Positions 27,001-33,000 of a stretch of DNA of 64,000 bases are shown here, piece by piece (within the stretch, counting starts at the first letter, position 1; every line of letters starts with the position of its first letter). Location of the stretch: contig JARDVH010000132.1 of assembly GCA_030324005.1 (NCBI GenBank), positions 93,622,277-93,686,276 on the forward strand. Reading direction: 5' to 3'. The position numbers were made by a program. The stretch is from Negaprion brevirostris. Taxonomy: Eukaryota.

Positions 27001-30000
27001 TTTTGGGCTGTTCTTAGGGGCCCTCTTTTAAGATCAAACCAAATAAACAAACTCAAATTAAATTAGGACAAAGTAGAAGGGGCAGCTCCCCAAAAGGAAG
27101 GAGAGCAGCCAAAAAACAAAGTACAGAGGAAACTTAAAATGTCAAATTAAAATGTGATTATTAGGGTCAATAATGCACCCCAGCCCCTGTGGTCCCCAAA
27201 AGGCGCAGAAGGCGTCAACTGCGCCCGCAGACACCACATGCTCTGTCTCCAGGGACACCTGGCCATGAACACAGCCGCGGTAGAGGGGCAGACAGTCAGG
27301 ATGGACAGCCCCCCCCCCCCCCGGGTAATGGGGGGGGGGCCATCCCAACCCTCCCCTCTCCACACCAGGTGTCCTTAGATCAGGAGCGAGGGACTAAAGT
27401 GCAAACAAAACATCAATAAAAAGTTTCTTCAGAAAAAAAAAAAGGGAGTGCAATCTAAGACACAAGACAGACATGGTCCACGGACTCCACAAGGCCACAG
27501 AAGGGACAAGCTTCGGAGCCCGTGAACCAGTGAATCTTAACATTGTGCAGAACCGCTGCATGCATCACCCTCCATTCCAGGTCCCCAGTGTAACTGGGGG
27601 AGATCCTTCCATAAAGGAACCTCCGCTGCCCGATGACAACAAGGTCTGCCAAACTGTATCCGGGCGACAGGCAAGGATGCAGTAGCAGAAGGTGTGCAGC
27701 AGCAGCCCGTACAGGAAACACCTCCGTGTGCTGGAAAGAGGCATGGAGGACATTTCCGCAAGGCGGCTCGTGCTGTGAGGCACCTGACCCGAGGAGGGGG
27801 GCTGAGGCTTTGGGCCAATGTAGAATTCTGTCCGAACAGGGGAACGCTTGGACAGGATCCCACCGCACGCGTGCGCCACCTCGAGACCGCATGCACACTC
27901 AGGGCCCAGTACGACCGTCCTAAGGTCTTGGATGGCTTTGGCCACGTGCCGGACAGACACCCCCAGATGCTCAGCCAGCACGCGAGGGCTCATCCAGCTT
28001 GCTCTGCCGCCATCCAGCACGTCCCTTATTCTGGTCACCCGGGCATCCGCAGTCTCCCTGTCCGTCAGCCACCTGAAGTTATACGGCTGGAGGAATGGAT
28101 TCCCGAGCAGCTGCTGTCGCATGAGAGCTGCTACTCCAGACAGTGAGGAGATCCTGGTAAAAGACGGGCAACTCCTACAAGGAGGTCGAAACGCATCCCA
28201 GACTGATATGCAGGAGCTGCACATCATAATTGAGGCCGCACCGCTGGCGGAAAAAATATGTTGCCAGGGCACACCATCGTGGAGGGGACTCAACATAAAA
28301 GTATCTTTGCAGGGTCTGGAGGTGGAAGGTCGCTATCTGAGTGCAGACGCACACCAGACCTTGACCGTCCTCAAGTAGGAGATGCAGAACTATAGCAGGG
28401 ACCCAGTGCAGTCGGTTGTCCCAGAAAAAATGTAGGAGGGTTCTCTGGATATTGGTGACAAAGCCAGGGGGAGGGGTCAAAGGGACCAGCCGGTACCACA
28501 ACATGGAGGCGACCAGCTGGTTTATGACCAGAACTCGCGCCCTGTAGGACAGCACTCAGAGCAGTCCTGTCCAGTGAGCCAGGCGGGTGGTGACTTTGGC
28601 CTCCAGCTCCCGCAAGTTCTCTGGCCAGGATTCCTCAGATGGGCAGAGATGGAACCCCAGGTAGAGGAGGTGCATCCTGCTCACTGGAGGAAGAGGTCTA
28701 CAGGCTGGACATTGGGGTGCTCTGGGGAGAAAAAAAACCCAGCTGGCCAACAAATGGGGAGACTGACAGATTGGGACCACTGTGCATGCGCAGAGTTCCA
28801 GAGCTATCAGACTCCAGCACGAATAGGCCCTGTCACACCCCACCCCCCTCCAGGTTTTTAAATGAGGTTCACGATTGTGACCTTTGTATGGCACAGGGCG
28901 GGGAGCTTCAGGTCTGAAGCTGCACTGAAAAAAAAAAGTCATGATCTAGACTAGTTTTCCCAACAATTCAGCACTTTTGGGAAAACCACCCCCAAAAATG
29001 AGTTTATATTTAACATTCAAACTGCAGCTTTTTGTAATTTCTTACCTTCTTTTTCTACTTTGGCTTTTCCTATTGGGATAATAAAGTCCTTTGACTGGAC
29101 TTCCTCAGAGACTTCAAAAGGCACACCATACATCAGTTCATTTTCCAAAAAAACAACTGCAGGAGTAATGGATGTTGTGAGTATAGAGTTTATTTAAACA
29201 AACATTCAAACAAAAGGTGTGCCTTAAACTGACTTGCAATATGTTTACAGGTTAAAAACCATTTTTCAATCAAATTCCAAGGTGTGTGTGTGTGTGTGTG
29301 TGGGGAAGGTGGTGGTGGGCAGAGAAGGAGTGAGTGGGTGGTGGTGGTGGTGTTGACAAATCAAATTACAAAGCTCTTGGCTAAAAAGAAAAAATGAAAC
29401 ATATCCATTAGCTACTTGCAGGCTTCAATGGAGTAAAAGAATGAATTAATACACAACAGTGGTCACTGGGGAACTAAGTCAGTACTGATCTGAAACTGTG
29501 CAGCCTTGGACTAAAATCAACATTCCGAGTGTAACAAATTTGCAGCGGCTTATCTGACAGGTCAGTTAGTGGAGGTGGTTAGCTAGAAGTTTCTACCCCT
29601 GTTTTTAATTTCCCTTTTAACATTCAAAGTATTTACATCTAATATTACCATTAATAAAAATGAAATAAAAAGATAATAAAATCAGTTAAATAGTGCCTCA
29701 TTAGAAGCATTTATCAATCAACTGAATGGCAATTGCAGGTATTTTGATCCATGTCAACAATATATATCTGAAATATAGAAAACAAATGCAGGAGCAGGCC
29801 ATTCAGCCCTTCAAGCTTGCTCTGTCATTCATTTTGATCATCAAATTCAATATCCTGATGCTGCATTCCTCCCATATTCCTTGATCCCTTTAGCCCCAAG
29901 AGCTCTACATCAAATTTCTTCTTGAAATTACAGTATTTTAAATGTTATCCATTTTAAAATAAAATGAAAAAAACTTACCAGGGTTATCATCTCGGATGGC

Positions 30001-33000
30001 AGATTTCAGCAACCCTTTAGCATCTTCAGCACTCCAAGGACTAATTACTTTTAGCCCAGGACAGTGGCTATACCATGCTGCAAAGCACTGGGAATGCTGA
30101 GCTGCCACTCCAGCTGAACAACCATTTGGACCTCTGAAAACAACAGGAACAGAAACTGCACCTGCCGACATGTAGAACGTCTTGGCAGCAGAATTTATAA
30201 CTTGATCAATGGCTTGCAGTGAGAAATTGAAGGTCATAAATTCACAGATGGGCCTCAAGCCAGCCTGAAAAGTTAGTAAGAATCTGACCTTATTTTCCCC
30301 AAAGACATATTGCAACAGGACATGTTTACATGCACTAGTTTTGGCAACTATACAGCATGCAATATTTTGAATTTCTATTCTTATACTCCAACACGCTTGG
30401 TAATGTTTCTATACTTAGTTTACAGAACTATTTCATTGACGAGTAATTAATATTTTTCGTAACAATGAAGCTTTATAAGCTTTCCTGCTATGAGAATGAA
30501 TGTGTGTGTGACAATTTTAATGTTAAACAAACAAGTCTGCTTCAGAAGAATATTCAATGTTTCATGTATTAAGTCCATGCACTTGGCACAGCAAGTTATG
30601 CAAAATAATCTAAGGTACATACCATGGCAGCACCAACTGCAATTCCTGCAAATCCCATCTGAAAAATAACGTGAAAAGATTTTAATACTTTAAGTTATTA
30701 AACAGAAATTAGACATGCAAAAGTTTCTTAATGAAACATACCTCTGAAATTGGAGTGTCTATGATTCTCTTGTCTCCCCATTTCTTCCACAATCCACGGC
30801 TCACCTATGAATATATACAACTAATTTCAATGCTAAAACTTCAAAGAGTTATAAATCATCAGCTATGGTAAATGATGAGGATGACAAAGAATCTACAGAA
30901 AGGGTCAGACAGGTTAAGTGAGTGGACAAAAACACTCACTTAACCTGTCTGATAGGAAGAATAAAGGAGCTGATTTTTATTTAAATGAAGAAAGATTGCA
31001 AAAGGCTGCAGCACAGAGGAATTTGGGGGTTTTTATGAAGGCCTTCACTTCAAAGATAATGGAGAATAAAAATGGGAAGTCTTGTTCAAACTATACAAGN
31101 NNNNNNNNNNNNNNNNNNNNNNNNNNNNNNNNNNNNNNNNNNNNNNNNNNNNNNNNNNNNNNNNNNNNNNNNNNNNNNNNNNNNNNNNNNNNNNNNNNNA
31201 AAGTCAAAAGTGCGTACGGGGAGTTAATCAGAGGGAAAAAAAATAATCAGCTGGATTTTGTTCAGGTGACTCAGGTCCCCTGCCAATTAATTGGAGAGCC
31301 TGCAGGAATGCTGTGCTAATTCTAAGGGGGAGGCCTGATGCAATTAAGTGCCCATGAGGCACTTAACTGGCTGGCATTGGAGCTTCTACTTAATGAAGCC
31401 CCCAGTGAAGTGGATATCCCACCCCGAGAGCTGCCTGCAAATCAGGGGCCCAGGCCTGACCCTGGATCCCAGGACACAGGTAAGTAAGGGCAGGATGAAA
31501 ATTGTGGGGAGGGGCTCATGGGAGGGGGGACACCAATAGATTCTGGAGGCCTCAGCTATAATTAACTTTAAGTGGTATAATAACGAGTCCAATTGCCTCA
31601 CCACCACCTAAAATTAAGGATTGTTTTCAGTGGCGGTAATGGAGACCAGAGATTCTCATTGAAAGAAACAAGTAGAAGGAGAGCAGGAACATTCTTAACC
31701 TGAAAGACTTTGGGATACTGCATACTGAAGTAGAATATAAAACATAAATTCAAAGGGGATGGGGTAAATATTTTGAAACAGGAATATTAAAAGGTGGGTT
31801 ACAGAAAAGCACTAGGAGCTGAATGGGATCTTGCTGTGCTGGAATAATTTTCTGAACACTCTCCTTTATTGATACTGAGCACATGGAGTGCTTTAGAAAT
31901 GTTGGTTAGAATGTGTCACTGTGAGAAACATAGCAAACACCAAATCCACTCTGGAACTCCTTGGTTTGATTCAGTCAGTCTGCGCTGCACCACTATGATG
32001 TATGAAGTCCAAATACAGATCAGATCTGACTGAGATTTCCAGTTCAGAGTTATTATCTTCATAATCTGTGTCCAAACCAGAATCCAAGGCGATATTAAGG
32101 GATCAAGCCAATTAAAATAACATTGAGTGGGAAGGCTGGCTGCACCTTGTGCAATACTAAGAGATTCTAGTCCTGGTTTTAAGGTGAATATAAGTGAGTT
32201 ATGGGATTACTATTATTTACAGATANNNNNNNNNNNNNNNNNNNNNNNNNNNNNNNNNNNNNNNNNNNNNNNNNNNNNNNNNNNNNNNNNNNNNNNNNNN
32301 NNNNNNNNNNNNNNNNNNNNNNNNNACTATTATTTACAGATAGGATATCAGGGTTTTACAACTATTAGTGAGATTAAATATATTACTGTTGGCAATGAGT
32401 GGCAACTGAATATTACAACTTTATGATTAATGATCAATGTAATTTCATAGAGCCACCATTAGTTACTGATGGAATCAATGTTCCTCCCATGTCTGGTTAT
32501 CCCTCTGTGAATTATTCTCCAGACTCAGTTTTCTATCTTTGCTTGCCCGCTCACTGTGACCTCATGGTGCTTAGAATTTGTTACACAACAGCTCTTAGCA
32601 TGAAACTGGAAACAACGGTAACTGACTTCAGAAGACCCAACTGTTAAAAGGCAAACGTAATAACATTTTGTAAAAGTCATGGGATCAAATATAACATGAT
32701 CAAATGTCATGTGGTGAGGCACCATAGCAGATGTGGTCAAAATGCCACAGAATCGAAGTTCCAGGAATTCTTAAAACCATAGTTGGCAACCCTACTCTAC
32801 ATGTTGTCTACAAGTGTGATTACTACACCATGCAAGGTAAGGGAAGTGAAGGTTTTCTTGTATTTTCCCCAATGATAAATTCCATAGCGTTTCATGTTTG
32901 AAAAGTTCATATTTTAAAATTCATTTTGAGAAAACTGGATGAGATGGAGGAAATACAGCACAATATAAATGCATGCAATTTGTTTCGCAGTTGGAAGTAC

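What the first reader, a model, noticed from the sequence alone, without database searches (positions are those of the whole stretch)
29046..30804. Intron-containing PDHB exon 4-7 cassette nested in the same orientation inside the last intron of a PDE11 gene
Seen: four PDHB exons with all eight splice sites canonical, no stop or frameshift, and introns retained, so this is a DNA-level copy and not a retrocopy. They lie between PDE11 exons 33001-33084 and 12814-12966 on the same strand. I found no PDHB exon 1-3, exon 8-10 or CpG-island promoter in the window. Known: PDHB is normally an essential, free-standing gene, and same-strand nesting of spliceable exons is rare because they compete for host splicing. 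Inference: either a partial duplication or exon-shuffling event captured by the PDE11 transcription unit, or an assembly misplacement.
Basis: partly seen in the sequence, partly recalled or inferred. Interest (0 to 1): 0.8.

Follow-up and report, generated by a model that had tools for sequence, protein, structure and literature searches.

The report
PDHB exon block inside PDE11A intron
Four intact exons of a shark pyruvate dehydrogenase beta gene lie, in this scaffold, inside the last intron of a PDE11A gene, but they sit on one small contig joined to its neighbours only through unsized gaps, so a scaffolding misplacement is more likely than a real nested gene.

Summary
Four PDHB exons lie on the minus strand at 30742-30804, 30623-30658, 29979-30264 and 29046-29156, all with AG/GT sites. 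They encode residues 69-234 of the 359-residue shark protein. Their boundaries equal segments skipped in annotated isoforms of other vertebrates. No other PDHB exon is in the window. They lie between the last two of six colinear PDE11A exons on the same strand.

The nesting itself is not shown. All four exons sit on one 8,755-base contig (22345-31099) bounded on both sides by 100-N gaps. Both contig ends break inside LINE fragments that do not resume beyond the gaps. So no PDHB/PDE11A-intron junction exists in continuous sequence. In 7 of 7 elasmobranch species with both proteins listed, PDHB and PDE11A lie on contigs of different length. The exons show no decay.

Best reading: a piece of the ordinary PDHB gene misplaced by scaffolding (about 0.6). 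A real recent partial duplicate stays possible (about 0.2). Copy number and read support could not be checked here.

The parts
30742..30804 (-). PDHB exon A (63 nt, residues 69-89 of the 359-aa shark protein), phase 0 at both ends
   Evidence: Together with exon B it equals the segment missing from an annotated Amazona isoform.
30623..30658 (-). PDHB exon B (36 nt, residues 90-101)
   Evidence: An annotated Rhincodon isoform starts at its first residue. It is too short for a database search of its own.
29979..30264 (-). PDHB exon C (286 nt, residues 102-196 plus one base)
   Evidence: 98% to Mustelus asterias PDHB; Transket_pyr E 2.4e-18; 3exe_B E 3e-54
29046..29156 (-). PDHB exon D (111 nt, residues 197-233 and the first base of 234), ends in phase 1
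   Evidence: It equals the 37 residues missing from annotated Latimeria X3 and Delphinus X2 isoforms.
22345..31099 (.). The single 8,755-base contig that carries all four PDHB exons, bounded by N runs on both sides
22245..22344 (.). 100-N run on the low-coordinate side of the PDHB contig; no overlap of the flanking ends
31100..31199 (.). 100-N run on the high-coordinate side of the PDHB contig; no overlap of the flanking ends
22345..22962 (-). LINE reverse-transcriptase fragment that runs into the gap at 22344 and is not continued beyond it
   Evidence: for example P0223 residues 443-629 of 765; no colinear continuation in 19386-22244; weak RVT_1 match
30850..31099 (+). Decayed LINE fragment (the part after the reverse-transcriptase core), antisense to PDHB, that runs into the gap at 31100; approximate start
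   Evidence: E 0.002 to the RT C-terminal part; matches another copy at 48441-48603; the sequence after the gap does not
27100..28945 (-). Second LINE-like fragment with long open frames just downstream of exon D, CpG-rich; approximate ends
   Evidence: No Pfam reverse-transcriptase match; the LINE assignment rests on recalled motif resemblance.
33001..33084 (-). PDE11A penultimate coding exon (residues 807-834 of P0121), ends in phase 0
   Evidence: PDEase_I E 8.9e-4, below the curated cut-off
12814..12966 (-). PDE11A last coding exon (residues 835-884 plus stop)
38458..38532 (-). PDE11A exon (residues 782-806)
42261..42324 (-). PDE11A exon
45559..45636 (-). PDE11A exon
46727..46827 (-). PDE11A exon (from residue 701)

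Best explanation
The four exons are a piece of this shark's ordinary, functional PDHB gene. The assembler produced that piece as a separate 8.7-kb contig because the neighbouring introns (the one before exon A and the one after exon D) contain LINE copies that broke the assembly. A scaffolder then placed the contig, through unsized 100-N joins, between contigs of the last intron of PDE11A. The nesting is therefore an artefact of the scaffold. Shown: the exons, the contig limits and the broken LINEs at both ends. Inferred: that the joins are wrong.
For: 1) All four exons lie on one contig, 22345-31099, with a 100-N run on each side. No base of continuous sequence joins PDHB-derived DNA to DNA that carries a PDE11A exon. 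2) The 100-N runs behave as joins between contigs. 2 of 7 have exact suffix=prefix overlaps of 17 and 29 nt; the two that flank the PDHB contig have none, and no other pair of contig ends overlaps. A fixed 100 N is used by at least one common scaffolder for joins it does not size (passages of PMC5545040). 3) Both contig ends are inside LINE fragments that do not resume beyond the gap. The RT fragment 22962->22345 stops at about residue 629 of 765 of P0223, with no colinear match in 19386-22244. The fragment 30850->31099 matches a second copy at 48441-48603, while 31200-31800 does not. This explains why only four exons are present without any biological breakpoint. 4) The exons show no decay. 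All splice sites are canonical and boundaries are conserved. At 9 of 165 positions the window residue is in the minority (<20% of 84-86 named PDHB proteins compared per exon), and none is unseen. 5) In 7 of 7 elasmobranch species for which searches list both proteins, the PDHB contig and the PDE11A contig differ in length. These are Rhincodon, Stegostoma, Heterodontus, Hemiscyllium, Pristis, Hypanus and Narcine. The nesting is therefore not ancestral. 6) None of the 18 PDE11A hits carries a Transket_pyr domain, and none of the 120 listed PDHB hits carries a PDEase domain. 7) The PDE11A backbone is coherent: 6 of 6 exons are colinear. The PDHB contig is the odd piece.
Against: A scaffolder needs some linking evidence to place a contig, and a false placement needs spurious links on both sides. 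The same-strand orientation is a 1-in-2 chance under misplacement, so it is neutral. Contig ends in repeats are also what a collapsed recent duplicate would show. No carcharhiniform species, the group of the best PDHB hit (Mustelus), could be checked for synteny. Copy number in this assembly, read depth and spanning reads could not be examined. Absence of overlaps at the two flanking gaps is shared with 3 other 100-N gaps, so it is not specific. The contig-length comparison is only a proxy for chromosome identity.
Confidence: 0.6

Rival explanations
1. A real, recent DNA-level partial duplication. A segment of the PDHB locus (at least exons A-D with their introns) was copied into the last intron of PDE11A in this lineage, in the same orientation. 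The complete PDHB gene persists elsewhere.
For: The scaffold places the block there in the same orientation. The introns are retained. Intact exons fit a very young copy. A short-read assembler would collapse two near-identical copies into one contig that ends where the copies diverge. That would also give a contig bounded by gaps.
Against: No junction is seen in continuous sequence. The contig ends coincide with broken LINEs, not with a visible breakpoint. No terminal inverted repeats or target-site duplication frame the cassette inside the contig. Four near-consensus exons upstream of the last exon would divert PDE11A splicing from a C-terminal exon that is conserved among elasmobranchs (the 17 elasmobranch hits 76-92% identical, a chimaera hit 66%); this is inference. 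PDHB and PDE11A are unlinked in 7 of 7 other elasmobranchs.
Confidence: 0.2
2. The whole PDHB gene has moved into the PDE11A intron in this lineage. The missing exons lie in the N runs or on unplaced contigs.
For: Gap sizes are unknown. The exons look functional. About 37% of nested human genes are same-strand (passage of PMC3192792).
Against: The placed contigs on either side (31200-32225, 32326-33000, 12967-22244) carry no PDHB exon at E <= 10. Bovine PDHB is compact, at 5.49 kb for 10 exons (passage of PMC4933360). No CpG-rich promoter-like patch lies upstream of exon A. The two genes are unlinked in 7 of 7 other elasmobranchs.
Confidence: 0.07
3. Retrotransposon-mediated capture. A LINE in the sense orientation just downstream of exon D (about 28945->27100) carried unspliced upstream PDHB sequence with it (5' transduction) into PDE11A.
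For: A LINE-like fragment with long open frames begins about 100 nt downstream of exon D, on the same strand.
Against: Three short introns of 83-822 nt would all have had to stay unspliced. No poly-A tail, target-site duplication or element end was identified. That fragment had no Pfam reverse-transcriptase match. The mechanism is rare.
Confidence: 0.02

Closest known systems
Vertebrate PDHB (pyruvate dehydrogenase E1 component subunit beta) gene
   Same: Exon C is 98% identical to Mustelus asterias PDHB and 91-97% to other sharks and rays. It matches Transket_pyr and solved E1-beta chains 3exe_B, 6cer_B and 1ni4_B. The exon boundaries equal those implied by annotated isoforms of coelacanth, dolphin, parrot and whale shark. 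The introns between the four exons are short, as in the compact bovine gene (5.49 kb, 10 exons; passage of PMC4933360).
   Different: Only residues 69-234 of 359 are present. There is no presequence or N-terminal exons and no Transketolase_C half. At least 6.7 kb follows exon D without a further exon.
Elasmobranch PDE11A (dual 3',5'-cyclic-AMP and -GMP phosphodiesterase 11A)
   Same: The last exon is 92% identical to the Scyliorhinus torazame protein and 76-88% to the 16 other elasmobranch hits (a chimaera hit 66%); 16 of 18 hits are named PDE11A or PDE11A-like. Six colinear exons cover residues 701-884.
   Different: The scaffold's last intron is 20,034 nt and holds five N runs and the PDHB contig. 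The other four introns in the window are 1.1-5.4 kb.
Nested (intronic) protein-coding genes of animals
   Same: In the scaffold, a set of spliceable exons lies within an intron of a larger host gene.
   Different: Known nested genes are complete transcription units, and about 63% in human are on the opposite strand (passage of PMC3192792). Here there is only an internal fragment, without promoter or terminal exon, and physical contiguity with the host intron is not shown.
Scaffold joins with fixed 100-N placeholders and misplaced small contigs
   Same: Seven runs of exactly 100 N are present. Two of them are in fact overlaps of 17 and 29 nt. Passages of PMC5545040 say that one widely used proximity-ligation scaffolder adds 100 Ns without sizing the gap.
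   Different: Which program built this scaffold is unknown. A misjoin is inferred, not demonstrated.

Membership tests
PDHB (E1 beta) gene | Transketolase pyrimidine-binding domain (Pfam PF02779) | tested here: met
   Exon C alone: E 2.4e-18, 66.8 bits against a cut-off of 27, profile positions 71-162 of 174
PDHB (E1 beta) gene | Transketolase C-terminal domain (PF02780; residues about 235-359) | tested here: not met
   tblastn of P0002 at E <= 10 finds nothing credible for residues 242-359 anywhere in the window; what lies in the N runs is unknown
PDHB (E1 beta) gene | N-terminal exons with start codon and mitochondrial presequence (residues 1-68) | tested here: not met
   No match in the window
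PDHB (E1 beta) gene | Orthologous exon-intron boundaries | tested here: met
   Segments missing from annotated isoforms equal exon D (Latimeria X3, Delphinus X2) and exons A+B (Amazona isoform 2); Rhincodon X2 starts at exon B
Processed retrocopy / retropseudogene | Loss of introns | tested here: not met
   Three introns of 83, 358 and 822 nt with AG/GT sites are retained
Decaying duplicate (unprocessed pseudogene) | Stops, frameshifts, lost splice sites or unusual substitutions | tested here: not met
   None found. At 9 of 165 positions the window residue is in the minority, and none is unseen among the 84-86 named PDHB proteins compared per exon. No nucleotide orthologue was at hand for a dN/dS test.
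PDE11A gene (host) | PDEase_I catalytic domain and PDE11A-specific C-terminus | tested here: met
   16 of 18 hits of the last exon are named PDE11A or PDE11A-like and all 18 carry PF00233. Single short exons match PDEase_I below the cut-off (E 8.9e-4 and 0.0095).
PDE11A gene (host) | Tandem GAF domains | not tested
   The window holds only residues 701-884; the upstream exons lie outside it
Nested gene in a host intron | Continuous sequence from host intron into guest and back | tested here: inconclusive
   Both sides are 100-N runs with no end overlap, and the LINE fragments that enter the gaps do not resume beyond them
Nested gene in a host intron | Guest is a complete transcription unit | tested here: not met
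   Only four internal exons are present and there is no CpG-rich promoter patch upstream of exon A

The most novel reading that the evidence does not exclude
The block is a real, very young, intron-bearing partial copy of PDHB inserted in the sense orientation into the last intron of PDE11A. The PDE11A penultimate exon ends in phase 0 and PDHB exon A starts in phase 0, so splicing into the cassette would stay in frame. Exon D ends in phase 1, so splicing on to the last PDE11A exon would shift the frame to a stop 13 codons in (frame 2). The result would be a PDE11A whose conserved 50-residue C-terminus is replaced by 166 residues of a thiamine-enzyme beta subunit. That would be an exon-shuffling event caught in the act.
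Probability: 0.2. Interest if true: 0.55.

Novelty: not a real feature. Interest (0 to 1): 0.15.

Why it matters
If it is an artefact, this is a useful flag. Gene annotation of this scaffold would yield a truncated PDHB model, and possibly a chimeric PDE11A-PDHB model. The true PDHB locus in this assembly would lack its middle exons. If it is real, it would be a rare view of a fresh DNA-level exon-cassette transfer of an essential metabolic gene into another gene's transcription unit, with a reading-frame-compatible entry junction. That is raw material for exon shuffling and a natural test of how strong foreign exons compete with a host gene's terminal exon.

Tried and rejected
1) I looked for the missing PDHB exons with a full-length shark protein at E <= 10 and word size 2 and found none.

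2) I tested for one LINE copy continuing across either flanking gap.
- The reference reverse transcriptases came from the one representative search (365 hits at E <= 0.001, best 1.4e-10, matching only the last third of the query). I used 13 of the 150 listed proteins, the longer ones.
- They mapped the fragment 22962->22345.
- They found no colinear continuation beyond either gap.
- A word-index search with the fragment 30918-31099 found nothing: 8 candidates, none at E <= 0.01.
- tblastx against the window's own copies matched only the side before the gap.
- By eye, the first 12 residues after gap 31100-31199 vaguely resemble the same element segment that ends the contig before the gap. No program supports this, so I make nothing of it.

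3) I looked for alternative neighbours of the flanking contigs by end overlap and found only the two overlaps already in place.

4) Other checks inside the contig and the window:
- No inverted repeats or target-site duplications frame the cassette. There are only a 34-nt inverted pair inside transposon debris and a 20-nt hairpin inside the LINE fragment.
- There is no Rfam family in the window.
- There are no tandem repeats in 19-34 kb.
- Self-comparison shows no repeat shared between the PDHB contig and the rest of the window at E <= 1e-10.

5) GC content does not separate the contig's non-repeat introns from the PDE11A intron.

6) Cluster-member look-up, which might have given chromosome-size contigs for the carcharhiniform PDE11A, was not available.

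7) Translating whole frames for a Pfam sweep was not accepted. Only open frames were scanned, so short exons of other genes could be missed.

8) A full-text search for PDHB + PDE11A + shark found 0 papers.

9) I considered cross-species contamination and rejected it, because both genes' best hits are sharks.

10) The spliced models were never joined. Exons were searched one at a time: C; A and D. Exon B, at 12 residues, was only matched locally. The joined PDHB cassette and the hypothetical PDE11A-PDHB junction were neither searched nor folded.

11) Nothing was done about the letters under the N runs.
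Full report
**What is in the sequence**

The window has 15 runs of N, 1,816 N in all. Seven runs are exactly 100 N long, and the runs divide the window into 16 contigs.

On the minus strand between 29046 and 30804 there are four open exon-like segments:
- A: 30742-30804, 63 nt
- B: 30623-30658, 36 nt
- C: 29979-30264, 286 nt
- D: 29046-29156, 111 nt

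All four are preceded by AG and followed by GT. They are separated by introns of 83, 358 and 822 nt.

**Identity of the four exons**

- Exon C was searched on its own. It finds vertebrate PDHB (pyruvate dehydrogenase E1 beta), with 7,998 of 8,000 scored candidates at E <= 1e-10. The best named hit is Mustelus asterias at 98%, and other sharks and rays are at 91-97%.
- Exon C also matches Pfam Transket_pyr (E 2.4e-18) and solved E1-beta chains (3exe_B, E 3e-54).
- A local tblastn of the Mustelus protein (P0002, 359 aa) places the four exons on residues 69-234.
- At E <= 10 that search finds nothing credible for residues 1-68 or 242-359. The other 5 of its 9 rows have E >= 5.6.
- Exons A and D alone have no Pfam match, being 21 and 36 residues long. 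Exon B (12 residues) was only matched locally.

**Exon boundaries and state of preservation**

- Annotated isoforms of other vertebrates lack exactly the window's exon D (Latimeria X3, Delphinus X2).
- Another isoform lacks exactly exons A+B (Amazona isoform 2), and Rhincodon X2 begins at exon B. The boundaries are therefore the conserved PDHB boundaries.
- I compared the window exon by exon with named PDHB proteins of 340-420 residues: 86 selected, 84-86 scored per exon.
- At 9 of 165 positions the window residue occurs in fewer than 20% of them, and at no position is it unseen. The two rarest residues are shared with Mustelus.
- There is no sign of decay.
- The label 'exons 4-7' was not checked. 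A passage of PMC4933360 gives 10 exons and 5.49 kb for the bovine gene.

**The host gene**

- The last-exon candidate 12814-12966 finds 18 proteins, 16 of them named PDE11A or PDE11A-like, in sharks, rays and a chimaera. The best is Scyliorhinus torazame at 92%.
- tblastn with two of these proteins maps six colinear minus-strand exons: 46727-46827, 45559-45636, 42261-42324, 38458-38532, 33001-33084 and 12814-12966.
- These cover residues 701-884. 6 of 6 acceptors are AG and 5 of 5 donors are GT.

**Why the nesting is doubtful**

- All four PDHB exons sit on one contig, 22345-31099 (8,755 nt), with a 100-N run on each side.
- The intron holds three further N runs, so it is pieced together from six contigs.
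- The 100-N runs are joins between contigs. At 32226-32325 the flanking ends overlap exactly by 17 nt, and at 45061-45160 by 29 nt.
- The other five, including both that flank the PDHB contig, show no overlap. No other pairing of contig ends in the window overlaps.
- Passages of PMC5545040 state that one common scaffolder inserts 100 Ns without sizing the gap. Which program made this scaffold is not known.

Both ends of the PDHB contig are broken LINE fragments.
- Low-coordinate end:
  - A reverse-transcriptase fragment runs on the minus strand from about 22962 to 22345, the last base before the gap.
  - It stops at about residue 629 of 765 of P0223, or 205 of 547 of P0141.
  - The next contig (19386-22244) has no colinear continuation even at E <= 50.
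- High-coordinate end:
  - A decayed LINE fragment on the plus strand runs from about 30850 to 31099.
  - It matches another copy at 48441-48603, but the 600 nt after the gap do not match that copy.

These breaks explain why the contig holds only four exons without any biological breakpoint. They also mean that no junction between PDHB-derived DNA and PDE11A-intron DNA exists in continuous sequence.

A further LINE-like fragment with long open frames and a CpG-rich patch (27.6-28.3 kb) lies just downstream of exon D. It accounts for part of the 6.7 kb without a further exon.

**Comparative evidence**

No eukaryotic genome collection was at hand, so synteny was read only from the contig lengths that the protein searches report.
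- For Rhincodon, Stegostoma, Heterodontus, Hemiscyllium, Pristis, Hypanus and Narcine, the PDHB contig and the PDE11A contig differ in length: 7 of 7 species with both listed.
- No carcharhiniform pair was available, and the look-up that might have given one was switched off.
- None of the 18 PDE11A hits carries a Transket_pyr domain. None of the 120 listed PDHB hits carries a PDEase domain.
- A full-text search for PDHB, PDE11A and shark found 0 papers.

**Explanations**

- Most likely (about 0.6): the contig is a piece of the single, functional PDHB gene, placed wrongly by scaffolding through repeat-ended contigs.
- About 0.2: a real, recent intron-bearing partial duplicate. A short-read assembler would collapse such a copy with its source into one gap-bounded contig, so the present data cannot exclude it.
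- If the duplicate is real, the reading frames give a specific outcome:
  - Entry from the PDE11A penultimate exon into exon A is in frame, because both boundaries are phase 0.
  - Exit from exon D (phase 1) into the last PDE11A exon shifts the frame to a stop 13 codons in.
  - Four near-consensus exons would then compete with a terminal exon that is conserved among elasmobranchs. That argues, by inference, against long persistence.
- About 0.07: relocation of the whole gene.
- About 0.02: LINE-mediated transduction.

A passage of PMC3192792 gives about 63% of nested human genes as opposite-strand.

**What stays open**

Copy number, read depth and spanning reads in the source assembly stay unchecked, as does the arrangement in close relatives. 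What the N runs hide is unknown, and I did not try to fill them. Pfam was run only on open frames, so short exons of further genes in the window may have been missed.

**Verdict**

The nested arrangement is most probably not a real feature of the genome. Interest is low unless the decisive checks show continuity.

Noticed in passing
window 32209-32225 / 32326-32342 and 45032-45060 / 45161-45189: The ends flanking two 100-N runs repeat each other exactly (17 nt and 29 nt). These 'gaps' are really overlaps of adjacent contigs, and the scaffold carries a small artificial duplication at each.
   Followed up: yes
window 43220-44235, minus strand: A LINE reverse-transcriptase fragment (RVT_1, E 1.2e-11 for 43672-44235) abuts the 100-N run 43117-43216 inside a PDE11A intron. 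This is another contig break in a repeat.
   Followed up: partly
window 27601-28350: This is the only large CpG-rich patch of the window (GC about 0.6, CpG observed/expected about 0.7, against a window median of 0.20). It lies in long open frames of a LINE-like fragment, which suggests a young insertion and not a promoter.
   Followed up: partly
window 23249-23282 and 24205-24238: A 34-nt inverted repeat, 97% complementary, with 922 nt between the arms, lies inside transposon-like sequence downstream of the PDHB exons. The frame 23787-24338 (minus) recalls a GIY-YIG endonuclease motif of Penelope-like elements. That resemblance is recalled, and Pfam gave no match.
   Followed up: no
window 30905-30952: A perfect 20-nt hairpin with an 8-nt loop lies inside the decayed LINE fragment about 100 nt upstream of PDHB exon A. 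It is probably a small local inverted duplication.
   Followed up: no
window 6892-7143, 21028-21324, 57061-57429, 63067-63357: A dispersed repeat family of about 300 nt (68-76% identity between copies) occurs in both orientations. No copy lies in the PDHB contig.
   Followed up: no
protein P0001 (hit): A 426-residue 'hypothetical protein' annotated in the nematode Nippostrongylus brasiliensis tops the list, at 268 bits for a 95-residue query with 82% identity. The score suggests more than one matching stretch, and a vertebrate-like PDHB sequence in that record may be host contamination or a duplicated model.
   Followed up: no
window 52710-55196, minus strand: Long open frames (119 and 160 residues) look like retroelement pol remnants by eye. 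The 160-residue frame had no Pfam match.
   Followed up: partly
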